The notes under the pieces: generated by a model
Told to the model about the DNA's origin: nothing
Databases searched by the model: none
What the model saw: only the letters and a program-made list of their open reading frames with translations
Assembly: GCA_964016885.1 (NCBI GenBank)
Contig: OZ024740.1
Span: 213,590,001-213,654,000 of the forward strand
Source of the DNA: Eledone cirrhosa
Taxonomy: Eukaryota
Reading direction: 5' to 3'
DNA length: 64,000 nt
In this document: positions 571-63,319 of the stretch, one piece after another
Layout: every line of letters starts with the position of its first letter
Position numbering within the stretch: the stretch's first letter is position 1
Made by a program: the position numbers and the translations under genes

Positions 571-640
571 CCACCCCCACACCTACCCTCAGGAATAAAT
601 GGGCGAAGAAGAAGCAGAAGACTTCAGTAAAATATGAGTG

Positions 641-7790: not shown

Positions 7791-8619
7791 TGGTTTTCGT
7801 TACGTCTCTCTGTTCTCTTAGTTCAAATCCTGCCGAGGTCTGTTCTCTTAGTTCAAATCCTGCCGAGGTCGATAAAAAAGTACAAGTCTAATTTCTCTCA
7901 CTTTCTATCCTTTTCTGGAAGAAATCTGCTATATTCAGACCTGGAAAGGGATGGGCTCTGCCAGATTTAAAATGAACTAGAGATGCTGTATGCCACTATG
8001 GCGTCCCTACGACTACACCAGGAGTTACGGTATGTAAGTAAATAAGCAGTCTTTTTTATTTGTTATGTTAAAGGAAACATTATAAGAAGCCTTCATTTCC
8101 AATTTAAATATGAGCTGGTGACTTCAGAAAAGACAGAGTCTTTAAAAATTGAAAATATTTTCTTTCTTTTTTTTTCTTTTCACCAATAAATCCAGTAAAA
8201 TGTAAGGAGTTACTGAGAAATGAACAAGACAGAGAGAGGACATAAATCAAAAAGAAAGAAAATAATGATTTATATTGCTTTTGAATTCTTGCAAATTGTA
8301 GGGGTCAGAAAAGCAAGAAACTGGAAGAGAATTCCTTTTGTGAGATGTGCGAGGGAAGAAACTATCAGATTGAATTTATGATTACATTTGGGAACTGTCA
8401 ATAGATGAGAACTGCTGCAAATCTGGTGCATTTAAACTGATGAAGACGAGGGCAGCTCATCTGAACAATTTCTATAAAAATGTTTATAGAGAGGCAAAGA
8501 GAGGCAACATCTGGACAGTATGATAGAGATTGAAGTCGACATAAGTCAGGACAAATATGTTGACTTTGGACTTTATCTAAACCCTCAGGACGCACAGCAG
8601 AAGAAGAAGAAGCGTTTGA

Positions 8620-8745
8620 TGGTGAAACCTTTCCCGAGGAGCGATACTTGATGAAGATGTCATCCTTAGAGTCACTAAAGGCATCAATGAAAACCACAGA
8701 GAAATAGATAGAAAAAAGGGTAGTGGCCATGGGATTATCATGCTT
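8620..8745 (-). mobile_element. RTE/BovB-like RT fragment
   Basis: ATTLFSIYFSVVFIDAFSDSKDDIFIKYRSSGKV resembles LAPTLF...GIYIRYRTDGKL. Confidence 0.6.
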
Positions 8746-8883
8746 AACAACATCCATCCATCTATCCATACATACATACAGACAGACAGACATACATTAG
8801 ATACATATGTACATACGTACATACATACATGCAAACAATGATCGCTTCATCTTTGCAGATAATTGCCGCCTTCTTATGCACCG

Positions 8884-9068
8884 CCAACATCGTCCCCCTC
8901 CCTCCCAATCGTCACTCCCTCCCAACATCGTCACCACCCCCAACATCGTCCCACCCCCCAAATTGTCACTCCCTCCCAACATCATCACCATCCCCCAAAT
9001 TGTCACTCCCTCCCAACATCATCACCATCCCCCAACAGCGTCATACCCCCACATCGTCACCACTCCAA
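8884..9068. repeat. C-rich imperfect tandem repeat (cccaacatcgtcacc / cccaaattgtcactccct)
   Basis: Visible alternating motifs. Confidence 0.8.
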
Positions 9069-9069
9069 A

Positions 9070-9323
9070 CGTCCGTTCATGGCCTCTTAGGTGGCCTTTA
9101 AATCCAGCTTTAGATTCGCACGGCCTGCAGCAAATGGGACAGACAAAAGATGTGCCTACTATTGGATTGATTGGGTCAGTTTGTGGGATGTCATCCTTAT
9201 GTACCCTCATATGCCTTTTAAGACCAGAGATTGGTTTGCAGATTTTTCTGCACCCCACACATGTTGTCTCACCTAGTATTGGAGGGATAGAGCTGCATAC
9301 AGCTGGTCTTTCATGTTATTTTT

Positions 9324-10473: not shown

Positions 10474-10538
10474 TATTTCATTATACATATTTCAAGGACA
10501 CCAAGTTAAATTATGGTGTGCTTTCTTCAGATAAAATA
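10474..10538 (-). ncRNA. Type I hammerhead ribozyme motif
   Basis: UAUUUUAU-CUGAAGA-AAGCACACCA/UGGUGUCCUU-GAAA-UAUGUA-UA-AUGAAAUA: intact core, 8-bp stem I, 9 of 10 pairs in stem II. Confidence 0.75.
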
Positions 10539-13696: not shown

Positions 13697-14513
13697 GTCT
13701 AACTTCCACTAATGTCTAACTTCCACTACACTCCACCATTGTCTAACTTCCACTACAGTCTACCGTTGTCTAACTTCCACTATTGTCTAACTGCCACTAC
13801 ACTCCACCACTGTCTAACTTCCACTACAGTCCACCATTGTCTAACTTCCACTACAGTCTACTAATGTCTAACTTCCACAACAGTCCACCAATGTCTAACT
13901 TCCACTACAGTCCAACACTGTCTAACTTCCACTACAGTCCACCATTGTCTAACTTCCACTACAGTCCACTAATGTCTAACTTCCACTACAGTCCACTAAT
14001 GTCTAACTTATACAACAGTCCACTAATGTCTAACTTCCACTACAGTCCACCATTGTCTAACTTCCACTACAGTCCACCATTGTCTAACTTCCACTACAGT
14101 CTACCATTGTCTAACTTCTACTACAGTCCACCATTGTCTAACTTCCACTACAGTCCACTAATGTCTAACTTCCACTACAGTCCACTAATGTTTAACTTCC
14201 ACAACAGTCCACTAATGTCTAACTTCCACTACAGTCCACTAATGTCTAACTTACACAACAGTCCACTAATGTCTAACTTCCAGAACAGTCCACTAATGTT
14301 TAACTTCCACTACAGTCTACCATTGTCTAACTTCCACTACAGTCCACTAATGTTTAACTTCCCCAACAGTCCACTAGTGTCTAACTTCCATTACAGTCCA
14401 CTAATGTTTAACTTCCACTACAGTCCACTAATGTTTAACTTCCCCAACAGTCCACTAATGTCTAACTTCCATTACAGTCCACCATTGTCTAACTTCCACT
14501 ACAGTCCACCATT
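13697..14513. repeat. 27-bp minisatellite, about 30 copies
   Basis: Unit tgtctaacttccactacagtccac(c/t)a(t/a). Confidence 0.97.
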
Positions 14514-20808: not shown

Positions 20809-21102
20809 TACTATTATGTTCCTCCTATTGTATTGTATATCTACGCCGTTTTTATTTTATCTGTTTATTTATTTATTTTTGTCTTCTTCTCTGCGCATGT
20901 TTTTCTTGCTGTATATCACATAAACGTAAATTCATCTGAAGAAATCGTACCCGTATCAGCAACAGATGCAACTACTGCACCTTGAATGCACATGGGAAGC
21001 CATAGAAATAATTATAATGAATAAACGCTTTATGTAATCACAGCATCTTTCTTAATGTTATTCTTATACTGAATCTGTTAATCTGTTAATCTTATACTGA
21101 AA

Positions 21103-22736: not shown

Positions 22737-24435
22737 CACCGTGTAACATATATTTTGTTCCCCGGTTCTAAGTATTATTTCCTGGTTTATTATATCCCAT
22801 TATTATAAAAAAAACACTATTATTTAATCAGAAGTTTGGGTTTGTGGTTAGAAGTTTGATATTTCGAAATTTTCATATTTTTCAAGAAAAAACATTTAAA
22901 AAAAATTTATCATATAATTAAATCAACAGAGTATATATTTATTTTATTACACAAGCTTATCAAAAGCTAACAAGTAAAAACAAATAACACTTATAAAGCA
23001 ACTTATACACGTCAGAAATGACTGGATTTCCTGGATTTGCGGTTGTAGTCCAGGTCGCATTCCCGCACTAGCCCCCAGATATAATCCCCCATAATTTTTT
23101 CATTGTAGTGGCCCTGGTACCCCCGCTCTATCTCTTTCACATCTTGGTGGAATCGTTCGCCTTGTTCTTCTGAGTAGGCGCCCATATTGGCCTTGAATTT
23201 TTCCAGGTGAGCGTCCAGCATATGGAGTTTAAGCGACATCCTGCATCCCATGGCGCCAAAAGCCTTTATCAGATCCTGCATCAGTTGCTGGTAGTTTTCA
23301 GCTCTGTAGTTGCCCGGGAAGCCCTTAACAACTGCCTTGAAACAGTTCCATGTTGTTCTCTCAATCCTATTGAGCTTATTGGAGAACTCGGTAGACTCAA
23401 ACACCTTCTTTATCTGAGGTTCAACAAAAATTCCACCTTTGATTTTGGCCTCAGATAACTTGGGGAAGAACTCAAGAAGGTACTTAAAAGCGGCTGATTC
23501 TTGGTTGAGAGCCTTCACAAACTGCTTCATCAACCCCAACTTAATGTGCAGTGGCGGCATGAGCACAATCCTGGGATCAACCAGTGGCTCCTACATGACG
23601 TTCCGGGTCCCAACTACAAATTCTGTTCGCTGCTCCCAGTTCTTTCTTTTGTAGTGGTCAGAGGTGGCTCTGCTGTCCCAAAGGCAGAGGAAGCATTGGA
23701 ATTTGATAAAGCCTCCTTGGAGTCCAAGCAGGAAAGCCACCATCTTAAAGTCTCCATTGATTTCCCAATTGTACTGGTTGTATTGCAGAGCTTCCAAGAG
23801 GACTTTCACACTGTAGAAATCTTCCTTCAGGCAGACTGAATGAGCTAGGGGCAGTGTCGGGAACTTGTTTCCATTGTGGAGGAGGACAGCCTTCAAACTT
23901 GTGGTGGGGCACAAACGGCACCCCAATAACGTCAAACAGTCCAGGCACGTCATGGCAGAAGCAGAGGCCATCCCTAAGAGTGTAAAAGCCTGAGAAAGGT
24001 TCGTGTCGACTTCTCTGACTGATCATCTGCACTTCCTCCTTGACCAAGTTCCACTGCTTCATCCTGGAGACGAATGCTTAAAACACAACTTACCCTTTAT
24101 TCAGGGTGCGAAAATCCAGTATCAATAAATCTCTTTAATCCACTTTTTAACAATTTTATCCTTTATTGCACTTTTATAATTTTCTTTAGGTATTACTCTT
24201 TATTTTATAATTTTAATTTAACCTGAAACATATATTAAAAAATCATTTAACATAAGCAAATTAAACTTACATACAACGTAAAATCCAGCATACAAATAAT
24301 TCTAGTGAATAGCTTTTTACAAAGCCAAACTTTTAACTATTTAATAGCACTTTTTTATTTATTTGGGACCTAAGCAACACAAAAAAGTGATTACAAGCCA
24401 GAAAAAGAGAAAAAAAAAATGTTTGTTACACGGTG
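22737..24435 (-). mobile_element. Chapaev3 (CMC)-type DNA transposon, internally deleted
   Basis: Perfect 12-bp TIRs CACCGTGTAACA; TTA TSD at 22734-22736 and 24436-24438; transposase motifs inside. Confidence 0.85.
23012..24062 (-). pseudogene. Chapaev3-type transposase with stop and frameshift
   Basis: SLKAVLLHNGN, GDFKMVAFLLGLQGG..CFLCLWDSR, PPLHIKLGLMKQFVKAL, SEEQGERFHQD split over three ORFs. Confidence 0.85.
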
Positions 24436-27407: not shown

Positions 27408-27628
27408 CTACGATGGACACATGTGCTGAGCTCGCTCGGTAAGTTTTTGTTTAAATTCATACGGAAATTGTAAACTGTAAACTTTCATTTTTGTACCATT
27501 TTGTAGAGGGACTGCCAGGTCAAATTTTGATCTGGTCGGTCTCTCAAAATATTCTGCGCCTTTGGGCGAAATAGTATTGTGAACATTTTATCTTTCGAAA
27601 AACTTCGAAAAACCCTATTTTGAGAAAA

Positions 27629-27805
27629 ATGGCTGAAGCATCTTCACCATCAATCAAAGAAGGAAAGGGGAAGTCATACTCACAGCTTCCCCCTGCCACT
27701 GTCACAGCAGCAGATGCCAAAGGCAGAGGTCAGAGAGAGGAAGAATTGTCTTCACCTGTTGACCGACCACTAGATGTAGCCACAACTACACAAGAATTTG
27801 AAAAC

Positions 27806-27836
<31 letters not shown>

Positions 27837-29173
27837 GCAACAATAAAGACAACAAAAACAACAACAACACAAACGTCACAAGTATCCACACACGAAACGA
27901 GAAAGACAACAACAACAACAAAGAGGAAAACAACTCAAACGACGAGAAACAAAACAATACTAATATCCAAAACGAAAACAAAATATCTTTTGCACAAACG
28001 GCTAAATTATCAGTCGCTTATGTGCTGGAAGATATTTCAAAAGCAAAAGAAATGCTGGAAAAAGCCAAGAAATATGTGTCTTTTGGCGAAAACGGATCGT
28101 TTTCTATACATTCACCTCCGGAGCTAAAAAGACAGACGGAATTACGAACTGTCGTATTCCGAACAATTTTAAATAAAACAAAGAAACCAGCGCAACCATC
28201 TCAAGCGGAAACTCAGTTAGTCTTGAAAGACGCGATGAGAGACATCACTTTCATACAAAAGGATAAACTCTATGGGAGTTTATCCATATTGATGAAAGAC
28301 GAATTGGCGGCAAAAAAATACTCTGTGTCGCCAATTCGGTCCACACACTACACCTTCTTCCCCACCTACATGGGTAAAAAAACCCAGAGGATATGGATAA
28401 CCACCATCACCCCAAACATAAACTACTGGTGGTTACTAACCGGTTTCCTCAATTTAGACGAGGACAACCTCATCTCAATAGGGAAGGCATCCGGCGACGC
28501 GTTCAGTGGAACGAGCCTCGAAGTTCTGACCCAAATAAGGCCAGAACGCATCGCCCAAATCCCTGAGCGCGTCATGCTGGATGACCGTACCCACCTCAAC
28601 ATTATTGTGGAGGGTATGCATCCCTCCTGTTACCTCTGTGGAAATAGAGGTCACCTGAGGGCTGCCTGTCCCCAGCTCACACAGAAAAAAACACTGCTAC
28701 CAACACCAACACCACCCCAACTACAACAACAAAAACAACCACAACAACAACAAAAACCAACAACCCCACCACCACCACCACAACAACAACAACAACAAAC
28801 ACGTGAAAAAATAACACAGAATACTGTCCCACCCAATCCCTCCCCACCCAAAACAAATACAAAAACACGCACACCGCAAACACTACCAGAAAACATACCC
28901 CTCCCACCCAACGAGGAAGACGAACCTCTTTCGTCGCAAGACGAAAAAGATCCCTTCCAACAAGTAAAAAGAAAGAAGAGGAGACGCACCACAGACACAC
29001 ATGTTAACTTTAACCCCCCCCCCCCAAGAGAACACAAACTACACACAAACCACCCCTCCCTGTCACACAACACTAACTGCTACACAAAAAAAGACCTTAC
29101 AATACACATACATGAACACAGACAACAAAGAATTACGGAAAACAATTTCAGCAAACCCTTCGGTCCAAACTGA
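27629..29173 (+). CDS. Tx1 ORF1 (gag-like, CCHC zinc knuckle); probably extended to 29482 before two poly-C frameshifts
   Basis: ATG at 27629; CYLCGNRGHLRAAC knuckle; N-, Q- and P-rich low-complexity segments. Confidence 0.85.
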
Positions 29174-29506
29174 AGGGCCAAACTTTATAACTGCTGTGGG
29201 ACTACCTCATTTGAAAATGATAAAAGTCCCAATGCACTTGTACAAAACACTGAAAATAAATTTCACGGAGGACGTGGGCCCCCCTGCGCCAAACCAATCA
29301 ACCGCGTCCTCCTAAAAAATTTCACCCCCCCACCCCACCCAGACACCCACTCAACGACAAACACCCCAACCCCACAACACACCGATGCCCCTTCACTTCC
29401 ACAAACCACCACCCCACCCAACAACCCATCCCCAACCAGCATGGAAATTGAGCGGCCCGTTTCCCGGGACGCAGAGAGGTAAGTGCCTTTTCTCTTTACC
29501 ACCAAC

Positions 29507-32500
29507 ATGGCTGTGCTAAGAGTAGGGTGTCTAAATGCGCGTGGCCTGGGCTCGTCTTGGAAGCAAGCAATGCTTCTAAATGACCTCAGGTCACAATCTA
29601 TAAATGTGGTTATCTGCGAGGCCCGGATCAGCAGCATGCGACAGCTAGCCCCCACCTTTGACGACTTTGAGATGCACGCATCTCTCTGTCAGCCCGGAGG
29701 TGGGGGTGGGGTTGTCGTTCTGCTGCAAAAACATATGGGCCTTGCAACACAGATAGTTCACTTGGACCCAGGGGGTCGACTGGTGGTGCTGGACCTTGGC
29801 AGTGGTGAAGGTAGAGCCCTTAGGCTGATAGCCGCATATGCCCCTTTTGGGACAGAGCGGCCCGACTTTTTCCAGCGTCTGGAGTCTTTTCTAGGGACGT
29901 CCCGTTCCCTGCTTTTAGTGGGGGATTGGAATGGTATCCTGGATGCACGTTGGGACTATGCAGGGGCATGTCCCGATAGAGAGGGGTGCAACAGCCTCAA
30001 GGGGTTACTCGGCCGATTTGACCTGGCCGATAGATTTCGACTAGATTTTCCGACGGTGCCAACCTGGTCTTGGTCAAATCGCAGCGGATCATCTAGATCG
30101 TACCTAGATAGATTTTTAGTTAGAAATAAGGACAGGGACTTTTTAAGTTGTCCAGAAATGCTCATGGTTGGCTATTCAGACCACAAGTTGGTGACCTGCA
30201 TGGTCAACCTTGATAGAACGCATAGTCAGGGCCCCGGTTACTGGAAGCTCAACTTGTCCTTGCCGGCAAGTAGAGCCTACAGGAATCGGATTAGTACGTT
30301 AGTTAAGGAACGGTTGACTGGAGCGATCGTCAACAGCAGGTGGTGGGTATCTCTAAAGAGAGAGATTAGAGTAGTCTCGATTGAATTTAGTAAGGTTCTA
30401 GCTGCGGATAGGAATAGGAAGGAAAGGGAGCTAATAGATAGAGTAGAAGAGGCAATTAGAAGCGGCGACGTGGCCAGAGTGCTAGCGTCGAGAACGGCTT
30501 TGAGCCAGTTTTTCGACGCGAAGCACGAAGGCTGCGTTGTCCGAAGTAAAATACGTGCTCTAGGGAACGAGGGGGCCAAAGCTGTTAGCTGGGCCCGCGT
30601 GACAGAGGCCAACAGTGGAACTAAATCCACCATCCGGTCTTTGCGAGACCTGGATGGACGGGCGATTCTTGAGCCTAAGCAGATGTGTGAGGCCTTTCAA
30701 AGGCACTTTGCCCGACTGTTCGGGAGGGGCGGGGAGCCGGTTGGAAACGTGGACTTCGGTCCATACCTCGACGGCCTGCCGCGCCTCTCGGACAGGGAGG
30801 CGAAGTCTTGCGAGGAGCCGATTTCGGCCGCTGAGATAGAGGACGTGCTGGGCCAATGCGGCAAACGCAAATCCCCGGGTCTCGATGGTCTTCCTTACGA
30901 ATTATATCTAGCTATGCCGGACTTGTTCCCCGATCTCCTCGAGGCGGTCTACTGCAACTGGCAACAGAACGGGAGAATTCCCTGTACTGTGACCAAGGGC
31001 GTAGTCACGCTAGTGAGGAAGGACGAGAACAAGGGGGACGAAATAAGTAACTTCAGGCCCATAACTCTGCTAAATACAGAGTTACAGATTTTGGCCAAGG
31101 TGCTAGCAAAGAGGTTGGCGCTTGTCGTGGGCAACCTGGTGGGAGATGCGCAGACATGCGCTATCCCGTCCAGGTCCATCCATGACAACCTCCACCTCAT
31201 GCGATACATCATAGAGAGGGTTGGGAACGAACCCGGCTTTGGTGGGGCTCTGATCAACTTGGATCAATCTAAGGCGTTCGATAGGGTCGACCATGGTTAC
31301 GTGGATGCGGTGCTAGCGGCGGCAGGCTTCGGACCCGTTTTCAGGGGCTGGATCACTGCTATGCACAGCAGCCGCATCTGCTCTAGGGTCAAGGTGAATG
31401 GCTACCTCTCGGAGCCGTTCAAAATCGCGCGGTCCATCCGACAAGGGTGCCCTCTCTCCTCCCTTCTGTATGTGTTGACTCTCGAGCCACTACTGCGGAA
31501 GTTGGAGTTGTTGCAGGGCATCCCTTTGGAACCGGGATTGCGGAAAACGGTGTCAGCCTACGCCGATGATGTGACAGTAATGGTGTCGACGGCCTCCGAA
31601 ATCGAGGCGGTCGGCACCTTACTGGAGGAGTACGAAAAGTTCACAGGGGCTAAGCTGAACCGGGACAAGTCGATCGGTTTGCAACTCGGCACGTGGAGGG
31701 GCAGACCGATGCCCTCCGATGGCGTCGTCGGACGCTGGACGGAGGGCCCGGTGAAGTTGCTCGGGGTCTGGTTCGGACCGGACCTCCAGGTGGAGAAAAA
31801 CTGGGCGGAGGTTACGAACAGGGTGTTTGCACTGACCCAGAAGTGGGCCAGTTGCAAACTATCCCTGAAAGGTCGGGCGGAGGTGGCGAACACTTATATA
31901 GCGTCCGTCATCTACTACCGCCTGACCGTAGTGCCCTGCCCAAGGGAAACCCTCACCAAGATGGAGCGCGCGCTCTTCCAATTCCTTTGGAAGGGGCGGG
32001 CTCCTATGGTGAGGAGATCCATCTGCTGTCAACACCCTTCGAAAGGAGGGCTGGGGATGCCGTGGCTAATGATGCGTAAACACGCATTAAGGCTACGGCA
32101 CCTCTACGTATTCCTCACCGGACAACCGGTGTGGGCCTCGTTTGTGAGACGAACCTTTCCCAGACTCGTATCACTCACCGAGCTGCAATCCTGGGTCAAG
32201 CAAAGACCGAGAAAACTGGGCGCCTGGCACACTGAGTGTGCCCAGGCGCTCACCGCCCTCTGGCAGGCGGATCCGGTTATCAGTGGAGACTCCACCGCAA
32301 CATTCTATAGAGGGCTGGTACGCAGCAGGTGCGACGACGCCCTCGGAGAAGCCCTAGACATGGAGGAGGACGAACTGGCCAGCCTGTTCGGTAGGACATT
32401 CAGCCCGGGACCTATGGACAACTTCCAGAAGTCCCTGGCCTGGCAGTGCTACCGAGGGGCTTTACCCGTTCGAGAAAGGCTCTACAGACACGGGCGCCCG

Positions 32501-32725
32501 GGTAGGGACCCCGCCAAAAAGATCTGTCCCAGATGCGTGTGCGACGAGGAAACCGTTGCACACGCATTGGTACACTGCTCGGGCGTAGCCGATCTGTGGG
32601 GCTATGTCGAGGGCTATGTCGAACAACTGCTGTCAAGGGTGGGACCGATCCGGTTGACCACCGAGGATCCGGTTGACCACCGAGTCTATTGTAATGATCA
32701 AGCCGCCTCCCCCCTTCAAAGATGA
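29507..32725 (+). CDS. Tx1 ORF2: AP endonuclease, reverse transcriptase, CCHC finger; C-terminus disrupted (native end about 32972)
   Basis: LNARG, GDWN, YLDRF, SDH (APE); KSPGLDG, FRPITLLN, DQSKAFDRV, RQGCPLS, YADD (RT); CPRC..ETVAHALVHC. Confidence 0.93.
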   Translation: MAVLRVGCLNARGLGSSWKQAMLLNDLRSQSINVVICEARISSMRQLAPTFDDFEMHASLCQPGGGGGVVVLLQKHMGLATQIVHLDPGGRLVVLDLGSGEGRALRLIAAYAPFGTERPDFFQRLESFLGTSRSLLLVGDWNGILDARWDYAGACPDREGCNSLKGLLGRFDLADRFRLDFPTVPTWSWSNRSGSSRSYLDRFLVRNKDRDFLSCPEMLMVGYSDHKLVTCMVNLDRTHSQGPGYWKLNLSLPASRAYRNRISTLVKERLTGAIVNSRWWVSLKREIRVVSIEFSKVLAADRNRKERELIDRVEEAIRSGDVARVLASRTALSQFFDAKHEGCVVRSKIRALGNEGAKAVSWARVTEANSGTKSTIRSLRDLDGRAILEPKQMCEAFQRHFARLFGRGGEPVGNVDFGPYLDGLPRLSDREAKSCEEPISAAEIEDVLGQCGKRKSPGLDGLPYELYLAMPDLFPDLLEAVYCNWQQNGRIPCTVTKGVVTLVRKDENKGDEISNFRPITLLNTELQILAKVLAKRLALVVGNLVGDAQTCAIPSRSIHDNLHLMRYIIERVGNEPGFGGALINLDQSKAFDRVDHGYVDAVLAAAGFGPVFRGWITAMHSSRICSRVKVNGYLSEPFKIARSIRQGCPLSSLLYVLTLEPLLRKLELLQGIPLEPGLRKTVSAYADDVTVMVSTASEIEAVGTLLEEYEKFTGAKLNRDKSIGLQLGTWRGRPMPSDGVVGRWTEGPVKLLGVWFGPDLQVEKNWAEVTNRVFALTQKWASCKLSLKGRAEVANTYIASVIYYRLTVVPCPRETLTKMERALFQFLWKGRAPMVRRSICCQHPSKGGLGMPWLMMRKHALRLRHLYVFLTGQPVWASFVRRTFPRLVSLTELQSWVKQRPRKLGAWHTECAQALTALWQADPVISGDSTATFYRGLVRSRCDDALGEALDMEEDELASLFGRTFSPGPMDNFQKSLAWQCYRGALPVRERLYRHGRPGRDPAKKICPRCVCDEETVAHALVHCSGVADLWGYVEGYVEQLLSRVGPIRLTTEDPVDHRVYCNDQAASPLQR

Positions 32726-44405: not shown

Positions 44406-44810
44406 AAAGCTAACTAGACAGCCGTCAAGGGCTCAGACATCAGAGAGATGTATTACTGAACTTTAAAGGATCACAGATACAGGTTTGTAAAATTAACTTG
44501 AATAAGAAATAATTACCTGTGATTGATAGGTAAATCGCTTAACGTTATGAACATATCCAAAGCGGTGGAGAGGGTCGTATGGTGTTATAATCTTGAGTAT
44601 GGTGTTATAATGTTGAGTAGGTGAGTGTGGTGTAGTAGAGAATGCAGGTATAGTAATTTTCTAAGAAGTGTCAGAACAAATGTCAAAATCTAAGTTCGTC
44701 GTTTATATATACACTCACACACACGCACATATATATACACACATACATATATATATGTACACACACACAAATATATATATATATAAAGAAACAGACATTT
44801 TTTCTGAGGG

Positions 44811-44903
44811 GTCTCTTGATAAGCCGTATCAACCTCACAGCGATGATGAATTTTTATAGTGCAGAATTCGTTGCACACGAATCGGCGAAAGTGCAGTCAG
44901 GAC
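44811..44903 (+). ncRNA. HHR-like motif with U3-A8 core, imperfect stems
   Basis: GUCUC-UUGAUAA-GCCG...CGGC-GAAA-GUGCAG-UC-AGGAC. Confidence 0.4.
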
Positions 44904-45183
44904 TTTGAAGGAAAAATAGGTATATTTTTGTCTATTATTTCCTCATATTTTGTAATTTGATATATATATATATATATAAGTATGTACACGTACATACATA
45001 TATGTATACCGACGTACAGTAGTATGTATATATATATATACATACATGCACACATATATATATGCACGTATGGATTCACCGAACATTTATTATAATGCTC
45101 GGTGTGTTTGTAAACAAACATCCCGTATTAAGCCGTAGTGTCTAGCAACCACCGTTGCTCGTTTGTTCAACACTGACAAAGGA

Positions 45184-45226
45184 ACGCTGTACTAGTTTCA
45201 AGCTTGTTAGCTATCGTCAGCAACGT
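45184..45226 (-). ncRNA. Type I HHR (identical copies at 45606-45648 and 46028-46070)
   Basis: Reverse complement of the motif at 46705-46747. Confidence 0.8.
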
Positions 45227-46704
45227 ATACCTTCCTGCCAGATTGTTGAACGTATATACTTACCTTATGCATATTAACGGCTGAGTAGCCCAATATGCAT
45301 ATCGAGTGGGTTAATCGGCCGGGTGCACCGAAAACGATAAACGGAAAAAATGAAACGATATTTCATTTCCCACTCTTAGTACGGCTGTTACTTAAATATA
45401 AGTATGTACACGTACATACATATATGTATACCGACGTACAGTAGTATGTATATATATATATACATACATGCACACATATATATATGCACGTATGGATTCA
45501 CCGAACATTTATTATAATGCTCGGTGTGTTTGTAAACAAACATCCCGTATTAAGCCGTAGTGTCTAGCAACCACCGTTGCTCGTTTGTTCAACACTGACA
45601 AAGGAACGCTGTACTAGTTTCAAGCTTGTTAGCTATCGTCAGCAACGTATACCTTCCTGCCAGATTGTTGAACGTATATACTTACCTTATGCATATTAAC
45701 GGCTGAGTAGCCCAATATGCATATCGAGTGGGTTAATCGGCCGGGTGCACCGAAAACGATAAACGGAAAAAATGAAACGATATTTCATTTCCCACTCTTA
45801 GTACGGCTGTTACTTAAATATAAGTATGTACACGTACATACATATATGTATACCGACGTACAGTAGTATGTATATATATATATACATACATGCACACATA
45901 TATATATGCACGTATGGATTCACCGAACATTTATTATAATGCTCGGTGTGTTTGTAAACAAACATCCCGTATTAAGCCGTAGTGTCTAGCAACCACCGTT
46001 GCTCGTTTGTTCAACACTGACAAAGGAACGCTGTACTAGTTTCAAGCTTGTTAGCTATCGTCAGCAACGTATACCTTCCTGCCAGATTGTTGAACGTATA
46101 TACTTACCTTATGCATATTAACGGCTGAGTAGCCCAATATGCATATCGAGTGGGTTAATCGGCCGGGTGCACCGAAAACGATAAACGGAAAAAATGAAAC
46201 GATATTTCATTTCCCACTCTTAGTACGGCTGTTACTTAAATATAAGTATGTACACGTACATACATATATGTATACCGACGTACAGTAGTATGTATATATA
46301 TATATACATACATGCACACATATATATATGCACGTATGGATTCACCGAACATTTATTATAATGCTCGGTGTGTTTGTAAACAAACATCCCGTATTAAGCC
46401 GTAGTGTCTAGCATTATAATAAATGTTCGGTGAATCCATACGTGCATATATATATGTGTGCATGTATGTATATATATATATACATACTACTGTACGTCGG
46501 TATACATATATGTATGTACGTGTACATACTTATATTTAAGTAACAGCCGTACTAAGAGTGGGAAATGAAATATCGTTTCATTTTTTCCGTTTATCGTTTT
46601 CGGTGCACCCGGCCGATTAACCCACTCGATATGCATATTGGGCTACTCAGCCGTTAATATGCATAAGGTAAGTATATACGTTCAACAATCTGGCAGGAAG
46701 GTAT

Positions 46705-46747
46705 ACGTTGCTGACGATAGCTAACAAGCTTGAAACTAGTACAGCGT
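46705..46747 (+). ncRNA. Type I HHR (identical copies at 47127-47169 and 47550-47592)
   Basis: ACGUUG-CUGACGA-U AGCU aaca AGCU U-GAAA-CUAG-UA-CAGCGU: 6-bp stem I, intact core, palindromic ACUAGU stem III, GUA site. Confidence 0.8.
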
Positions 46748-47855
46748 TCCTTTGTCAGTGTTGAACAAACGAGCAACGGTGGTTGCTAGACACTACGGCT
46801 TAATACGGGATGTTTGTTTACAAACACACCGAGCATTATAATAAATGTTCGGTGAATCCATACGTGCATATATATATGTGTGCATGTATGTATATATATA
46901 TATACATACTACTGTACGTCGGTATACATATATGTATGTACGTGTACATACTTATATTTAAGTAACAGCCGTACTAAGAGTGGGAAATGAAATATCGTTT
47001 CATTTTTTCCGTTTATCGTTTTCGGTGCACCCGGCCGATTAACCCACTCGATATGCATATTGGGCTACTCAGCCGTTAATATGCATAAGGTAAGTATATA
47101 CGTTCAACAATCTGGCAGGAAGGTATACGTTGCTGACGATAGCTAACAAGCTTGAAACTAGTACAGCGTTCCTTTGTCAGTGTTGAACAAACGAGCAACG
47201 GTGGTTGCTAGACACTACGGCTTAATACGGGATGTTTGTTTACAAACACACCGAGCATTATAATAAATGTTCGGTGAATCCATACGTGCATATATATATG
47301 TGTGCATGTATGTATATATATATATACATACTACTGTACGTCGGTATACATATATGTATGTACGTGTACATACTTATATTTAAGTAACAGCCGTACTAAG
47401 AGTGGGAAATGAAATATCGTTTCATTTTTTTCCGTTTATCGTTTTCGGTGCACCCGGCCGATTAACCCACTCGATATGCATATTGGGCTACTCAGCCGTT
47501 AATATGCATAAGGTAAGTATATACGTTCAACAATCTGGCAGGAAGGTATACGTTGCTGACGATAGCTAACAAGCTTGAAACTAGTACAGCGTTCCTTTGT
47601 CAGTGTTGAACAAACGAGCAACGGTGGTTGCTAGACACTACGGCTTAATACGGGATGTTTGTTTACAAACACACCGAGCATTATAATAAATGTTCGGTGA
47701 ATCCATACGTGCATATATATATGTGTGCATGTATGTATATATATATATACATACTACTGTACGTCGGTATACATATATGTATGTACGTGTACATACTTAT
47801 ATTTAAGTAACAGCCGTACTAAGAGTGGGAAATGAAATATCGTTTCATTTTTTCC

Positions 47856-47911
<56 letters not shown>

Positions 47912-47951
47912 GAAATAACAGTAGGCTGGACTGGTGCAAATCCTTGAAAGG

Positions 47952-48024
47952 TATATTATACTATGATCATTTCAATGACCGGGTTCCATATGAATCCGGT
48001 GATATCATCAGGTATTGGAATATA
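47952..48024 (-). ncRNA. Type I HHR motif
   Basis: UAUAUU cca AUAC-CUGAUGA-UAUCACCGG..CCGGUCAUU-GAAA-UGAUCA-UA-GUAU AAUAUA. Confidence 0.75.
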
Positions 48025-48127
48025 ACAAAGGAATATGTAAAAAGCCATGGGTCCGAAAAACCATGGGTCCGGGAAACCAGAGACAGAAAGGGCGGCTGAC
48101 CAACTAGCTTCACAGCCAGCCGCCCAC

Positions 48128-48275
<148 letters not shown>

Positions 48276-48442
48276 GAGGGCGGCTGGCTGTGAAGCTAGT
48301 TGGTCAGCCGCCCTTTCTGTAGGAGGTGAGTTTTATTGTAGCACAATAAAGCAATGCAAATATCGGATAAGTAGCACTCAACAGTTTATAGGACTGGAGT
48401 ATAAATAATATAAGATCAAAAGATGGTTAAAAGAGTTCCATG

Positions 48443-48514
48443 TATTTTATTATGCGAATTTCAAAAACAAATATCATCATTGGGATGATATTTGCGTTCT
48501 CATCAGATAAAATA
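48443..48514 (-). ncRNA. Type I HHR motif (mirror of 48642-48713)
   Basis: UAUUUUAU-CUGAUGA-long stem II-GAAA-UUCGCA-UA-AUAAAAUA. Confidence 0.72.
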
Positions 48515-48641
48515 GGGAGACATGATATGAAGCTTAAAAAACACTTGCGAGCAGTGAAGTGCCAAATCAACGTATAACATACATGTTGATTTGACACTTC
48601 ACTGCTCGCAAGTGTTTTTTAAGCTTCATATCATGTCTCCC

Positions 48642-48713
48642 TATTTTATCTGATGAGAACGCAAATATCATCCTAATGGTGATATTTGCTTTTGAAATGC
48701 GCATAATAAAATA
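48642..48713 (+). ncRNA. Type I HHR motif
   Basis: 8-bp stem I, CUGAUGA at 48650, stem II including GCAAAUAUCA/UGAUAUUUGC, GAAA at 48694, AUGCGCAU stem III, AUA site. Confidence 0.8.
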
Positions 48714-48743
48714 CATGGAACTTTTTTAACCATCTTTTGATTT

Positions 48744-48840
<97 letters not shown>

Positions 48841-48971
48841 GTAGATAAATCTATCAAAATATACGGTAGTGTCCAAAAGAACTCAATGTAATCCAAATAT
48901 CATGAAAAGAGAAGATGCATTCAAAAATTTTCGATGAAAATCATAGGAAAACAGAGTCAAGATAAATTAAT

Positions 48972-49768
48972 AAAAACAATGATATAAAAACAAAGAACAA
49001 TTTCCTTATATTAAAAAATTCATCATTTTACGATCGTTTCTAGGATGTATATGTGTGTTGGTATGTATATCATATAGATCTATGTAAAAATATTACAAAT
49101 TATCAGAGGAAATATACATACCTTCACATATACATGCTGTTTTCAGAAATGATGAGATTTGTTTATTGAAAAAAAAACAAAACAAAGGTTTAATATAAAA
49201 GGTTTGTTTGGGAACAGGTTTTGAATTGAGCAATAGAAAAGTAGTTAGAGGTCAAGTTGATAGAATAGTAGTAGTAGAAATTTAATTTAGGGGTAGAGGA
49301 GTGCAGACTTATGTTTTGAATGGAAAGAATACTTTGAATGAAATGAATACTTTGGGGATGACCTCTGGCTTGACCTCTTTTCATCCCCAAAGTATTCATT
49401 TCATTCAAAGTATTCTTTCCATTCAAAACATAAGTCTGCACTCCTCTACCCCTAAATTAAATTTCTACTACCACTATTCCATCAACTTGACCTCTAACTA
49501 CTTTTCTATTGGTCAATTCAAAACCTGTTCCCAAACAAACCTTTTATATTAAACCTTTGTTGTTTTTTTTCAATAAACAAATCTCATCATTTCTGAAGAC
49601 AGCATGTATATGTAAAGGTATGTATATTTCTTCTGATAATTTGTAATATTTTTACATAGATCTATATGATATACATACCAACACACATATACATCCTAGA
49701 AACGATCGTAAAATGACGAATTTTTTAATATAAGGAACTTGTTCTTTGTTTTTATTTCATTGTTTTTC
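48972..49768. repeat. Large fold-back with arms of about 390 bp, containing a mirrored HHR
   Basis: 48972-49361 pairs with 49381-49768 with scattered mismatches. Confidence 0.92.
49587..49716 (+). ncRNA. Type I HHR with a large insertion in loop II (mirror copy 49020-49155 has G8A)
   Basis: UCAUUU-CUGAAGA-CAGCAUGUAUAUGU...ACAUAUACAUCCUA-GAAA-CGAUCG-UA-AAAUGA. Confidence 0.65.
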
Positions 49769-50505
49769 GTTTTAGGTAATCCAGTTAGAGGTTGTGAGTA
49801 CTCTGTACTATGGATAGTTTTAACGTACGGCGTTGTTTGACTCAACAAGAGGTTTCCTTAGTTAGGTAGTGAGTTTGCGAGAATTCCCATGCAGGTCATT
49901 CTTGGAGTAATAGTAGTGAAAGAGTGAAGAATAACATGGTCGGCTGTACAAAAAGGGTTTTGTTTACAGTATTAACAATTGTTTCATTGATCAGGTGAGT
50001 CTAAAGGCCGCTAATCACTCGAAGTTGCGTCACTCGACCTTAAATACAGTGTGTGTCTGATCAAATTATTGGAATACTGGAGGGTGTAACACATGGCATT
50101 GGTATTTATAGATACATCGGAGAATCAAGTGGATGAAAACAATAACATCAATAATAACAGATAATAAAAGATAATAATAAAGAAGTCAGAATGAAAATGA
50201 TAAAGATATAAAAAATAATCAAAAAAAATAAGTACAGAATACGATTGCTGATAATAGTAGTGGTGGTGGTGGTAGATGAAGTTATAGTGGTGAGTAAGTG
50301 GATGTGTAAAATAGTGATGACGGTAAAGATAACAAAAACACGAAAAGAAATACGAGGTATAATCAAATCTCAGAGGATTAAAATAAAAAATAAAAAATAA
50401 AAAATAAAAAATAAGTAAGAGAGGAAGAGATAAGGGACAGGAGATAGAGAGTGAGGATAAGGATTCGAGGATGAGACATAAGGGGTAGGACTAAGGACGG
50501 GGAAG

Positions 50506-51145
50506 GAGTAGATAGATAGATAGAGAACAAAAAGTGAGTAGAATAAAAAGGAGTAGATAAATAGAGAACAAAAAGTGAGTAGAATAAAAAGGAGTAGATA
50601 GATAGAGAACAAAAAGTGAGTAGAATAAAAAGGAGTAGATAGATAGAGAACAAAAAGTGAGTAGAATAAAAAGGAGTAGATAAATAGAGAACAAAAAGTG
50701 AGTAGAATAAAAAGGAGTAGATAGATAGAGAACAAAAAGTGAGTAGAATAAAAAGGAGTAGATAAATAGAGAACAAAAAGTGAGTAGAATAAAAAGGAGT
50801 AGATAAATAGAGAACAAAAAGTGAGTAGAATAAAAAGGAGTAGATAGATAGAGAACAAAAAGTGAGTAGAATATAAAGGAGTAGATAGATAGAGAACAAA
50901 AAGTGAGTAGAATATAAAGGAGTAGATAGATAGAGAACAAAAAGTGAGTAGAATATAAAGGAGTAGATAGATAGAGAACAAAAAGTGAGTAGAATATAAA
51001 GGAGTAGATAGATAGAGAACAAAAAGTGAGTAGAATAAAAAGGAGTAGATAAATAGAGAACAAAAAGTGAGTAGAATAAAAAGGAGTAGATAGATAGAGA
51101 ACAAAAAGTGAGTAGAATAAAAAGGAGTAGATAGATAGATAGAGA
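50506..51145. repeat. 41-bp purine-rich minisatellite, about 15 copies
   Basis: Unit gagtagatagatagagaacaaaaagtgagtagaataaaaag. Confidence 0.97.
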
Positions 51146-51153
51146 AATAAAAG

Positions 51154-51412
51154 CGAGGTCACCTGCTGAGATCATCCTGTTTTGCATCAGATGATGGAGC
51201 TGAACCATTGAAATATGTATAGTGTTTTCACAGAATTAAAATGTACAGCATATCTTTCAATACGGCCTTCTGTTGTCGTTTTAAATATATATATATAAGG
51301 CCGTATTGAAAGATATGCTGTACATTTTAATTCTGTGAAAACACTATACATATTTCAATGGCTCAGCTCCATCATCTGATGCAAAACAGGATGATCTCAG
51401 CAGGTGACCTCG
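51154..51412. repeat. Fold-back carrying mirrored variant HHR scaffolds (51155-51229 +, 51337-51411 -)
   Basis: GAGGUCAC-CUGCUGA...-GAAA-UAUGUA-UA-GUGUUUUC; homologous to the 123-bp unit. Confidence 0.75.
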
Positions 51413-51540
51413 ACAGAATTGCATAAAAGGGTTGCGTAGAACCCATACTTATCGTAGACGTAAAGAGAATAGCAAGTTGGAAAATTGAAAAGTGAAAAGG
51501 AAAAAGAAAACAAAAATGAAAATTTGACTTGAAGACCGCC

Positions 51541-54500
51541 TGTGGAAGGAGTGTTTATCTGTCCACTTGTAATCCTGTCAAAGTTACCTGATGAGACCGT
51601 CCTGTCTTGCATCATAATTAGATGATGAAGCTGGGCCATTGGAATATGTAAGTGATGTCACAATGTGGAAGGAGTGTTTATCTGTCCACTTGTAATCCTG
51701 TCAAAGTTACCTGATGAGACCGTCCTGTCTTGCATCATAATTAGATGATGGAGCTGGGCCATTGGAATATGTAAGTGATGTCACAATGTGGAAGGAGTGT
51801 TTATCTGTCCACTTGTAATCCTGTCAAAGTTACCTGATGAGACCGTCCTGTCTTGCATCATAATTAGATGATGAAGCTGGGCCATTGGAATATGTAAGTG
51901 ATGTCACAATGTGGAAGGAGTGTTTATCTGTCCACTTGTAATCCTGTCAAAGTTACCTGATGAGACCGTCCTGTCTTGCATCATAATTAGATGATGGAGC
52001 TGGGCCATTGGAATATGTAAGTGATGTCACAATGTGGAAGGAGTGTTTATCTGTCCACTTGTAATCCTGTCAAAGTTACCTGATGAGACCGTCCTGTCTT
52101 GCATCATAATTAGATGATGGAGCTGGGCCATTGGAATATGTAAGTGATGTCACAATGTGGAAGGAGTGTTTATCTGTCCACTTGTAATCCTGTCAAAGTT
52201 ACCTGATGAGACCGTCCTGTCTTGCATCATAATTAGATGATGAAGCTGGGCCATTGGAATATGTAAGTGATGTCACAATGTGGAAGGAGTGTTTATCTGT
52301 CCACTTGTAATCCTGTCAAAGTTACCTGATGAGACCGTCCTGTCTTGCATCATAATTAGATGATGGAGCTGGGCCATTGGAATATGTAAGTGATGTCACA
52401 ATGTGGAAGGAGTGTTTATCTGTCCACTTGTAATCCTGTCAAAGTTACCTGATGAGACCGTCCTGTCTTGCATCATAATTAGATGATGGAGCTGGGCCAT
52501 TGGAATATGTAAGTGATGTCACAATGTGGAAGGAGTGTTTACCTGTCCACTTGTAATCCTGTCAAAGTTACCTGATGAGACCGTCCTGTCTTGCATCATA
52601 ATTTGATGATGGAGCTGGGCCATTGGAATATGTAAGTGATGTCACAATGTGGAAGGAGTGTTTATCTGTCCACTTGTAATCCTGTCAAAGTTACCTGATG
52701 AGACCGTCCTGTCTTGCATCATAATTTGATGATGGAGCTGGGCCATTGGAATATGTAAGTGATGTCACAATGTGGAAGGAGTGTTTATCTGTCCACTTGT
52801 AATCCTGTCAAAGTTACCTGATGAGACCGTCCTGTCTTGCATCATAATTTGATGATGGAGCTGGGCCATTGGAATATGTAAGTGATGTCACAATGTGGAA
52901 GGAGTGTTTATCTGTCCACTTGTAATCCTGTCAAAGTTACCTGATGAGACCGTCCTGTCTTGCATCATAATTTGATGATGGAGCTGGGCCATTGGAATAT
53001 GTAAGTGATGTCACAATGTGGAAGGAGTGTTTATCTGTCCACTTGTAATCCTGTCAAAGTTACCTGATGAGACCGTCCTGTCTTGCATCATAATTTGATG
53101 ATGGAGCTGGGCCATTGGAATATGTAAGTGATGTCACAATGTGGAAGGAGTGTTTACCTGTCCACTTGTAATCCCGTCAAAGTTACCTGATGAGACCGTC
53201 CTGTCTTGCATCATAATTTGATGATGGAGCTGGGCCATTGGAATATGTAAGTGATGTCACAATGTGGAAGGAGTGTTTATCTGTCCACTTGTAATCCTGT
53301 CAAAGTTACCTGATGAGACCGTCCTGTCTTGCATCATAATTTGATGATGGAGCTGGGCCATTGGAATATGTAAGTGATGTCACAATGTGGAAGGAGTGTT
53401 TATCTGTCCACTTGTAATCCTGTCAAAGTTACCTGATGAGACCGTCCTGTCTTGCATCATAATTTGATGATGGAGCTGGGCCATTGGAATATGTAAGTGA
53501 TGTCACAATGTGGAAGGAGTGTTTATCTGTCCACTTGTAATCCTGTCAAAGTTACCTGATGAGACCGTCCTGTCTTGCATCATAATTTGATGATGGAGCT
53601 GGGCCATTGGAATATGTAAGTGATGTCACAATGTGGAAGGAGTGTTTATCTGTCCACTTGTAATCCTGTCAAAGTTACCTGATGAGACCGTCCTGTCTTG
53701 CATCATAATTTGATGATGGAGCTGGGCCATTGGAATATGTAAGTGATGTCACAATGTGGAAGGAGTGTTTATCTGTCCACTTGTAATCCTGTCAAAGTTA
53801 CCTGATGAGACCGTCCTGTCTTGCATCATAATTTGATGATGGAGCTGGGCCATTGGAATATGTAAGTGATGTCACAATGTGGAAGGAGTGTTTATCTGTC
53901 CACTTGTAATCCTGTCAAAGTTACCTGATGAGACCGTCCTGTCTTGCATCATAATTTGATGATGGAGCTGGGCCATTGGAATATGTAAGTGATGTCACAA
54001 TGTGGAAGGAGTGTTTATCTGTCCACTTGTAATCCTGTCAAAGTTACCTGATGAGACCGTCCTGTCTTGCATCATAATTAGATGATGGAGCTGGGCCATT
54101 GGAATATGTAAGTGATGTCACAATGTGGAAGGAGTGTTTACCTGTCCACTTGTAATCCCGTCAAAGTTACCTGATGAGACCGTCCTGTCTTGCATCATAA
54201 TTTGATGATGGAGCTGGGCCATTGGAATATGTATAGTGATGTCACAATGTGGAAGGAGTGTTTACCTGTCCACTTGTAATCCTGTCAAAGTTACCTGATG
54301 AGACCGTCCTGTCTTGCATCATAATTTGATGATGGAGCTGGGCCATTGGAATATGTAAGTGATGTCACAATGTGGAAGGAGTGTTTACCTGTCCACTTGT
54401 AATCCTGTCAAAGTTACCTGATGAGACCGTCCTGTCTTGCATCATAATTTGATGATGAAGCTGGGCCATTGGAATATGTAAGTGATGTCACAATGTGGAA

Positions 54501-54985
54501 GGAGTGTTTACCTGTCCACTTGTAATCCTGTCAAAGTTACCTGATGAGACCGTCCTGTCTTGCATCATAATTAGATGATGGAGCTGGGCCATTGGAATAT
54601 GTAAGTGATGTCACAATGTGGAAGGAGTGTTTACCTGTCCACTTGTAATCCTGTCAAAGTTACCTGATGAGACCGTCCTGTCTTGCATCATAATTTGATG
54701 ATGGAGCTGGGCCATTGGAATATGTAAGTGATGTCACAATGTGGAAGGAGTGTTTACCTGTCCACTTGTAATCCTGTCAAAGTTACCTGATGAGACCGTC
54801 CTGTCTTGCATCATAATTTGATGATGGAGCTGGGCCATTGGAATATGTAAGTGATGTCACAATGTGGAAGGAGTGTTTACCTGTCCACTTGTAATCCTGT
54901 CAAAGTTACCTGATGAGACCGTCCTGTCTTGCATCATAATTTGATGATGGAGCTGGGCCATTGGAATATGTAAGTGATGTCACAA
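51541..54985 (+). repeat. 123-bp satellite, 28 copies; unit is a degenerate HHR scaffold
   Basis: Period 123 from tgtggaaggag at 51541; GUUAC-CUGAUGA-hairpin-GGAA-UAUGUA-A-GUGAU in each unit. Confidence 0.95.
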
Positions 54986-55126
54986 AGTTAAAATTTACAA
55001 CATATTTTCCAGTCCGGCCTTCTGTTGTCGTTTTAAGTACTTTACTCCGTTTCCTGCGCCAACCACTGGATACCGCATCTACGATGGATGACGTCCGTAA
55101 TGTCGAGTGCTTTGAAAAATCGTTGC

Positions 55127-61243: not shown

Positions 61244-61559
61244 TAACAGATTAAAGTTTAAGCAAAGAATCGCTGCTTTCACCCTTAGCGGGATCTTCTG
61301 AAACTAAAAAAATCAATCTGTGAACGCAGATGTAAATATTTCGAAAAACGTTATTAATTAAAAGTTGGTTAGAAGCGAAGTCAATGCAGACAGGCAACCA
61401 GGCAGACAGATATTATAAATTTAGAAGACAAAAATACCCTCGCTTTCTTACATGGAAAAAGTTACATCTATGGTGCAAATTTGGTGCTGTTTGGTCCAGC
61501 CGTTTGGCGAAAAAGTTTGTTACATACGTACAGCCGTCAGCTTTGTAATATAGATATGT

Positions 61560-62171
61560 ATGTATCCCGCTGCAACACTTGTCCCTTTATTTCCACCCTC
61601 ACCACTCTTACAGGCTCTAACGGGTCTTTCCGTATCCGCCATTCCTTCACCTGCACATCCACCCACGTTGTCTACGCCCTCCGGTGTTCCCTTTGCGGGT
61701 CTTTATATATCGGACAAACACTTGAGGGAAATACGACTCGGTTTGGTTACTCCTGTCGCCCGTCATTTCTGTTCTCCTGGTCATTCTTCCCTACATGTTT
61801 CAGTCCTGGGTGTCCTTTTATATCGTGGATCACAGGCCTCGCGGACCAGGACTGAGCAAAGTCTGATTCACCGCCTTGGGTCCTATTCCCCTCTTGGACT
61901 CAACTCACCTCCCCAATTTCTCTAATACCCCGTCCATTAACACACCCTTAGATTCCTATCTCTTTCTCTTGATCATTAGCAGCTTCTCTTACAACTAATA
62001 CATGCCGACTATATATGCTCACTCCACTTTTCCCTTCACTGCTCTATATACACACATACACACCCTTACATTAACATATTTTTGCTCATAGCTTCGTACT
62101 TACATGCACACAAACTCTTTTACTCACATACACACACACATTTCTTCTTAGCTTCGTACGGACGTATAATA

Positions 62172-63269: not shown

Positions 63270-63319
63270 GAACTGCAGACACTAATGTTTCTGGGTATCA
63301 CGCTTCATCAGTACAGCTC
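63270..63319 (-). ncRNA. Type I HHR motif, weak stem II
   Basis: GAGCUGUA-CUGAUGA-AGCGUGAUACCCA-GAAA-CAUUAGUG-UC-UGCAGUUC; 8-bp stem I, GUC site. Confidence 0.65.

What the first reader, a model, noticed from the sequence alone, without database searches (positions are those of the whole stretch)
44811..54985. 10-kb ribozyme hot spot built from six unrelated HHR families
Seen: HHR motifs at 44811, six in the 422-bp array, 47952, 48443/48642, 49020/49587, 51155/51337 and 28 scaffolds in the 123-bp satellite. They lie almost back to back, are mostly separated by (TA)n, and four of the six families occur as mirrored pairs. Inference: (TA)n tracts act as a landing pad where HHR-bearing retroelements accumulate, possibly forming a trap or silencing locus that yields dsRNA against many families, or a barrier that would cut any read-through transcript on either strand.
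Basis: partly seen in the sequence, partly recalled or inferred. Interest (0 to 1): 0.75.

Follow-up and report, generated by a model that had tools for sequence, protein, structure and literature searches.

The report
Pile-up of Penelope ribozyme tail ends
This 10-kb stretch is a dense pile of tail ends from seven jumping-gene families that carry self-cutting RNA motifs and end in TA repeats; it is likely a crowded but ordinary landing spot in a genome full of them, not a dedicated silencing trap or transcription barrier.

Summary
The hammerhead (HHR) motifs are real. All are type I with a palindromic stem III, as in Penelope-like elements (PLEs). Only 9 of about 42 motifs keep an intact core; all 28 satellite copies are mutated relics of the 51155 family. 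Family C is the end of a Hydra-clade PLE (821-aa open frame), D and X sit behind Hydra-like fragments, and the 422-bp array is a very young retrozyme with PLE-type ends. Head-to-head pairs and (TA)n targeting are published PLE/Hydra traits. In 139 blind 10-kb samples of the genome I found 107 intact HHRs (about 230,000 genome-wide by extrapolation), and 126 of 173 copies end within 300 nt of (TA)n. One sample held seven families, equal to this locus. So the locus is about nine times the mean but lies in a tail of hundreds to thousands of similar sites. Folding predicts that each mirror copy masks its ribozyme in a read-through RNA, which argues against the barrier idea. The trap idea could not be tested. 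The scan has already noted this system many times on other DNA of this genome.

The parts
44785..44960 (+). Family A 3' end with a U3-A8 variant HHR (44811-44903); this copy has stem III GTGCAG where most copies have palindromic CTGCAG, so it is likely inactive
   Evidence: 90-94% identical to other genomic copies
44974..46413 (-). 422-bp retrozyme array, left arm; intact HHR cores at 45220, 45642, 46064; outer end at unit position 247 on (TA)n
46410..47861 (+). 422-bp retrozyme array, right arm; intact HHR cores at 46711, 47133, 47556; outer end at unit position 306 (59-nt tail) on (TA)n
   Evidence: arms 99.9% identical; identical copies at many other loci
47909..48130 (-). Family B 3' end with one intact HHR (48011 to 47962, stem III TGATCA)
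   Evidence: 96-99% identical to other copies
48125..48322 (.). (CA)n(TA)n(TG)n followed by a 50-nt mirror fragment of family B without HHR
48320..48748 (.). Family C head-to-head pair, the 3' end (pLTR) of a Hydra-clade PLE; right HHR 48650-48705(+) intact, left HHR about 48443-48500(-) with stem III TTCGCA; tail on the left arm only
   Evidence: arms 95.8% identical
48744..48840 (.). (TA)n tract shared by the 3' ends of C (right arm) and D (left arm)
48843..49766 (.). Family D head-to-head pair; right HHR 49593-49710(+) intact, left HHR 49146 to 49029(-) with G8A; tail on the left arm only
   Evidence: arms 96.7% identical
49764..51140 (-).
51152..51284 (+). Family E short copy (HHR 51163-51221, A6C); 99% identical to the minus arm next to it, likely a local fold-back duplicate around (TA)6
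51297..51566 (-). Family E minus arm (HHR 51403 to 51345, A6C)
51541..54985 (+). 123-bp tandem x28, a local amplification; each unit joins about 25 nt of the family E minus arm to about 98 nt of the plus arm; HHR core A13G in all 28
   Evidence: the first 24 nt of the unit matched only this locus among the 40 candidates scored
54986..55125 (+). 3' end and tail of the family E plus arm
   Evidence: 84% identical over 145 nt to L015

Best explanation
The region is a pile of 3' ends of seven hammerhead-bearing element families that end on (TA)n, likely built up by repeated insertion of Hydra-clade Penelope-like retrotransposons and their non-coding passengers into the same TA repeats, and it likely has no function of its own. 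Shown: the families are dispersed genome-wide; each has a short and a long (tailed) 3' end on (TA)n; C is the pLTR of an element with a Hydra-type open frame; the copies here differ in divergence; most cores have decayed. Inferred: the PLE GIY-YIG endonuclease cuts (TA)n and both cut ends prime reverse transcription at two fixed sites of the element RNA. Early 5' truncation then leaves one end or a head-to-head pair with a tail on one arm. Each insertion leaves (TA)n on both sides, so the target is renewed and younger elements land between older ones (A and E, the most diverged, are outermost). The 422-bp array is inferred to be copied by the same machinery from a circular or multimeric RNA. 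The 123-bp and 41-bp arrays and the 51155 copy are inferred to be later local DNA amplifications.
For: Genome searches gave 272-3,734 first-look candidates per family, 40 scored each. Three of five fetched loci hold an 821-aa open frame with DKT, YRDD, CxCX5C, CxxC and CxH, no CCHH, and family C HHRs beside it on the same and the opposite strand; L179 shows minus HHR, RT, EN, plus HHR. A CxCX5C endonuclease lies upstream of D in L180 and L181, and an EN-like fragment upstream of X in L165. Two 3' end classes are clear for A, B, C, D and the 422-bp family, and weaker for X and E. In 5 of 9 arrays read cleanly, one arm ends at unit position 247 and the other at 306. Background: 113 events in 139 samples, 26 head-to-head and 2 tail-to-tail; 126 of 173 copies end near (TA)n; one sample has 7 families; a negative-binomial fit gives P(7 or more) = 0.6% (bootstrap 0.1-1.4%). 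Other families around an HHR (0.68 per 3 kb) are about as frequent as HHR families around a long TA tract (0.54). Published traits match: Hydra PLEs insert in (TA)n and carry HHRs, including Hydra-1_Obim of Octopus bimaculoides (PMC8557442); opposite-strand HHR pairs 100-700 bp apart and the U3-A8 core (PMC4209133); two RT start sites that define the tail, and cleavage of both strands of AT-rich DNA (PMC11167929).
Against: The locus is denser than its TA content predicts: 7 families against a mean of 0.97 and a maximum of 5 among 38 samples with 5-14 TA tracts (the region has 13). No PLE open frame was found for A, B or E, so their link to PLEs rests on end structure. Pfam and PDB did not recognise the Hydra-type frames; the clade call rests on motifs compared by eye with the supplement of PMC8557442. 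The motif reads RWT, not RWK, and the unit is about 3.7-3.9 kb, above the usual Hydra size of under 3 kb. Two junctions lack (TA)n and need later deletion or microhomology joining. The assembly of these palindromes was not confirmed from reads.
Confidence: 0.85

Rival explanations
1. Trap or silencing locus: read-through transcription makes long hairpin dsRNA or piRNA against seven families, and the host keeps the locus for that.
For: Four long inverted repeats would fold into near-perfect hairpins if transcribed. The density is in the upper tail. piRNAs are widely expressed in molluscs (PMC6128900, search listing only).
Against: The same head-to-head pairs occur in 26 of 113 background events. 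The cluster holds only TA-targeting PLE-type ends, not a mix of transposon classes. The 422-bp family is spreading with 100% identical copies, and intact relatives of family C persist.
Confidence: 0.07
2. Bidirectional ribozyme barrier: any read-through transcript on either strand is cut.
For: Three intact same-strand HHRs of the 422-bp unit lie on each strand and could form the dimeric fold; one intact B copy is not masked by a mirror.
Against: About 33 of 42 motifs are mutated in the core or stems. In head-to-head pairs the antisense copy is transcribed first: the predicted stem I pairing falls from 0.83-0.99 to 0 for C and from 0.47-0.97 to 0 for the 422-bp HHR. Single minimal PLE HHRs showed no cleavage in vitro (PMC4209133), and the anole PLE HHR needed its protein (PMC11167929). 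The nearest gene found ends about 52 kb away.
Confidence: 0.03
3. Part of the palindromic or tandem structure is an assembly artefact (fold-back reads, collapsed or expanded arrays).
For: The 422-bp arms are 99.9% identical and the 51155/51337 pair 99.1%; palindromes are hard to assemble (PMC8557442).
Against: The C and D arms differ by 3-4% and have different ends. The 422-bp arrays end at the same two fixed sites at other loci, while their inner junctions differ.
Confidence: 0.05

Closest known systems
Hydra clade of C-terminal EN+ Penelope-like elements, including Hydra-1_Obim (Craig et al. 2021, PMC8557442; passages, section 11 and supplement hits read)
   Same: (TA)n target; HHR in the pLTR; inverted 5'-truncated copy; tail at one end; DKT, CxCX5C, CxxC and CxH motifs; no CCHH
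   Different: RWT in place of RWK; about 3.7-3.9 kb unit against under 3 kb; tails of about 90-160 nt against 30-40 bp; stem I and III sequences differ from the Hydra-1_Obim HHR; only truncated ends lie in this window
Minimal PLE hammerheads (Cervera and de la Pena 2014, PMC4209133; parts 1-2 of 4 read)
   Same: Type I, palindromic stem III, long helix II, solo truncated copies, opposite-strand pairs 100-700 bp apart, U3-A8 variant
   Different: Six of seven families lack G10.1-C11.1; family X has a CCGAUGA core; my extrapolated number (about 230,000, different descriptor) far exceeds the 4,000-9,000 reported for coelacanth and Xenopus
Metazoan non-LTR retrozymes (PMC7229834, passages read; bioRxiv 10.64898/2026.07.22.740005, parts 1-2 of 5 read)
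   Same: The 422-bp unit is a non-coding, low-GC tandem repeat with one type I HHR per unit, dispersed genome-wide; PLE origin or mobilisation is proposed there
   Different: Two head-to-head arms with fixed outer ends 59 nt apart were not in the passages I read; circular RNA is not shown here
piRNA clusters / transposon trap (search listing only; otherwise recalled)
   Same: Dense nested transposon fragments on both strands
   Different: One element type only, explained by a shared target; no small-RNA evidence

Membership tests
Hydra-clade PLE (family C parent) | [quoted passage not shown] | tested here: met
   821-aa open frame in 3 of 5 fetched loci with YRDD and a C-terminal EN-like block; recognised by motif, not by Pfam
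Hydra-clade PLE (family C parent) | DKT motif, CxCX5C linker, CxxC and CxH, no CCHH | tested here: met
   definition
Hydra-clade PLE (family C parent) | RWK motif | tested here: inconclusive
   RWT at the matching place (by eye)
Hydra-clade PLE (family C parent) | HHR in the pLTR and insertion in (TA)n | tested here: met
Hydra-clade PLE (family C parent) | Generally shorter than 3 kb (a tendency, not a strict criterion) | tested here: not met
   about 3.7-3.9 kb between same-strand HHRs
Hydra-clade PLE (family C parent) | Placement inside the Hydra clade on an RT tree | not tested
   no reference sequences held as session data
Hydra-clade PLE (families A, B, E) | Linked RT-EN open frame | tested here: inconclusive
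   none found in 1.5-kb flanks of 9-11 copies each, or in the 2.8 kb between a B pair in L182
Type I hammerhead ribozyme | Core CUGANGA, GAAA, UH with stems I-III | tested here: met
   9 motifs intact; about 33 others mutated
Type I hammerhead ribozyme | G10.1-C11.1 pair | tested here: not met
   present in family A only; read from the sequences
Type I hammerhead ribozyme | Self-cleavage | not testable with these tools
   needs in vitro transcription
Non-LTR retrozyme (422-bp unit) | Non-coding tandem unit of 150-450 bp with one type I HHR each, at many loci | tested here: met
Non-LTR retrozyme (422-bp unit) | Expressed as linear and circular RNA | not testable with these tools
   needs RNA data
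Non-LTR retrozyme (123-bp unit) | Intact HHR in each unit, and dispersal of the unit | tested here: not met
   28 of 28 A13G, 27 of 28 lack a cleavage-site base; unit junction seen only here among 40 scored candidates
piRNA cluster / transposon trap | Locus-derived small RNAs | not testable with these tools
   needs small-RNA reads
Type-SGC (non-circularly permuted) hammerhead | Block order other than CGS | tested here: not met
   none in 44700-55100 or in one exemplar each of six families

The most novel reading that the evidence does not exclude
A self-renewing (TA)n landing pad has become a host silencing locus: read-through transcription folds the head-to-head PLE ends into long hairpins that yield small RNAs against seven ribozyme-bearing families at once. 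Hundreds of such clusters would form a distributed anti-PLE defence in a genome with some 200,000 hammerheads.
Probability: 0.07. Interest if true: 0.65.

Novelty: new member of a known kind. Interest (0 to 1): 0.3.

Why it matters
The locus itself is ordinary for this genome. Its value is as a compact record of repeated PLE insertion into one TA target, with copies from 100% down to about 80% identity side by side. Two wider points would interest specialists. First, the scale: about 230,000 intact HHR motifs in 3 Gb (bootstrap 157,000-315,000), against 126,247 reported for the 28-Gb axolotl genome (different descriptors). Second, the 422-bp retrozyme carries the PLE two-end footprint, which makes PLE-driven retrozyme mobilisation directly testable. 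Both points were already noted by this scan on other windows. My paper searches found no report of either for cephalopods; subscription journals and bioRxiv supplements were not searchable.

Tried and rejected
Rfam at gathering and E-value thresholds gave only hairpin-driven miRNA look-alikes. RNA evidence: no RNA holder was listed for the 422-bp unit; the two guessed-RNA runs had 0 contigs laid. This is no evidence on expression either way. Assembly check of the D/X junction: no listed contig bridged it, but 10,162 pieces were not shown, so it is inconclusive; loose ends showed that D and X normally each end on (TA)n. A general rule of palindromic flanks around (TA)n was rejected: 26 of 2,488 tracts (1.0%) against 1.2% for random pairing. 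Pfam and PDB searches of the PLE frames were blank except a sub-threshold GIY-YIG hit in an unrelated neighbour. Intron test: I scanned 105 of 149 candidate frames from the window and 40 kb on each side, leaving out those in tandem repeats and the nine shortest. They showed a SPOP-like gene whose last coding exon ends about 52 kb left of the cluster, and no exon on the right; intergenic is likely but not proven. One singleton descriptor hit (L135) was dropped from the first library. One of 140 requested background regions did not exist.
Full report
Observation. The region is built from a head-to-head 422-bp array, several shorter palindromes, a 41-bp tandem and a 123-bp tandem. Rfam finds no hammerhead. 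The descriptor is specific: 107 hits in 1.39 Mb of genome against 1 after shuffling. Only simple repeats or direct joins lie between them.

State of the ribozymes. Nine motifs are intact: six 422-bp copies, B, the right C and the right D. Compared with other genomic copies, A has lost its stem III palindrome, X has two core changes and both E copies have A6C. The left C has a stem III change and the left D has G8A. All 28 satellite units have A13G and 27 lack a base at the cleavage doublet. Each satellite unit joins minus-arm and plus-arm sequence of one head-to-head E insertion, so it is a local DNA amplification and not a retrozyme.

What the families are. Each is a dispersed repeat with 272-3,734 first-look candidates. 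Best identities to other copies are 100% (422-bp), 96-99% (B), 95-98% (C), 95-97% (D), 92-95% (X), 90-94% (A) and 79-91% (E), so the cluster grew over a long time, with the most diverged elements outermost. Family C follows an RT-endonuclease frame on the same strand. Three of five fetched loci hold an 821-aa open frame with DKT, YRDD, CxCX5C, CxxC and CxH and no CCHH, with family C HHRs at both ends (one partial in L262) and an inverted copy. These are the traits given for the Hydra clade of PLEs, nearly all of which insert in (TA)n and carry HHRs; the supplement lists Hydra-1_Obim of Octopus bimaculoides (PMC8557442). D and X have Hydra-like endonuclease fragments upstream. A, B and E gave no frame and may be non-autonomous. 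The families have a short and a long 3' end on (TA)n, and in the C and D pairs here only one arm has the tail. The anole PLE protein cuts both strands of AT-rich DNA and starts reverse transcription at two sites that define the tail (PMC11167929). Opposite-strand HHR pairs and the U3-A8 core were described for PLEs in 2014 (PMC4209133).

The 422-bp array. Identical copies occur at many loci, mostly as two head-to-head tandem arms. In 5 of 9 arrays read cleanly, one arm ends at unit position 247 and the other at 306, both on (TA)n; in the other four, locus variants stopped the exact-match read-out of one or both ends. Locus-specific variants run through whole arrays, which fits copying from one circular or multimeric RNA. 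One locus has different arms and one has a single odd unit, so a circle is not proven. The unit fits the definition of a metazoan non-LTR retrozyme (PMC7229834; bioRxiv 10.64898/2026.07.22.740005).

Is the density special? I fetched 139 regions of 10 kb at fixed round-number positions. They hold 107 intact motifs, 183 copies and 113 events. Families per region were 0 in 82, 1 in 33, 2 in 9, 3 in 8, 4 in 3, 5 in 3 and 7 in 1. The locus is about nine times the mean (0.78 families), far beyond a Poisson expectation but matched by one blind sample. A negative-binomial fit gives 0.6% (0.1-1.4%) of windows with seven or more, or roughly 300-4,000 windows genome-wide. This is a rough extrapolation. 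HHR ends track (TA)n (126 of 173 within 300 nt against 19% at random), and HHRs have about as many other families nearby as long TA tracts do (0.68 against 0.54 per 3 kb). Against my reading, samples with a similar TA count average only 0.97 families (maximum 5 of 38), so TA number alone does not predict this locus; renewal of the target by nesting is my inference.

Function. Barrier: most cores are mutated; stem III palindromes differ between families, so cross-family dimers cannot form (inference); and in head-to-head pairs the antisense copy precedes the ribozyme on either strand. Equilibrium folding of read-through segments of 366-901 nt drops stem I pairing to 0 for C, D and the 422-bp HHRs, while unpaired B is unaffected. 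Trap: hairpin dsRNA would form if the region is transcribed, but 26 of 113 background events have the same geometry, the cluster holds one element type only, and the families remain abundant or young. The nearest gene found, SPOP-like, ends about 52 kb to the left.

Novelty. The element class, target, ribozyme type and mirrored geometry are published. The genome-wide number (about 230,000 by extrapolation, inflated by tandem arrays) and the fixed-end footprint of the retrozyme were not found in my searches, but the scan's earlier notes already report them for this genome (350 and 105 matching notes). I reached these readings before opening the notes, and count the notes as leads, not support. 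PMC10085705 was read as passages for the SGC lead. Verdict: a real, dense, ordinary cluster of PLE-type ends; interest 0.3.

Noticed in passing
window 27575-32725 (+): Near-intact non-LTR retrotransposon: a 532-aa first frame and a 1,080-aa frame with AP endonuclease, RT and zf-RVT hits.
   Followed up: partly
L172-L174 (G000:C1 about 213,563,700-213,583,040, +): SPOP-like gene (MATH, BTB, BACK exons); the stop codon lies about 7 kb before the window start.
   Followed up: partly
window 10482-10530 (-), 20936-21016 (+), 63278-63311 (-): Three further intact HHRs of other families in the window.
   Followed up: partly
window 49944-50083 and L162-L170: Family X has the core CCGAUGA (U4C) in all 11 other aligned copies, with an 8-bp stem II and a UU cleavage doublet; activity is unknown.
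   Followed up: partly
L183-L187: 422-bp arrays carry locus-specific variants: 424 nt in all 15 units of L184, 426 nt in 14 of 15 in L185, one shared substitution in all 5 of L183. In L187 the two arms differ (422 against 424), which suggests two templates.
   Followed up: yes
L221 (G000:C3:30,000,001-30,010,000): A blind sample with seven HHR families in 5.4 kb, a natural control locus.
   Followed up: partly
window 641-4536 and 13776-14509: 31-bp tandem x126 and 27-bp tandem x27.
   Followed up: no
window 23012-24022 (-), 9025-9315 (-), 61373-61925: A transposon-like coding relic without Pfam hit, a C2H2 zinc-finger fragment below the Pfam cut-off, and what looks by eye like a GIY-YIG-type PLE fragment.
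   Followed up: no
L181: Frames that look like Helitron replicase/helicase pieces beside a family D insertion; the label is recalled and was not tested.
   Followed up: no
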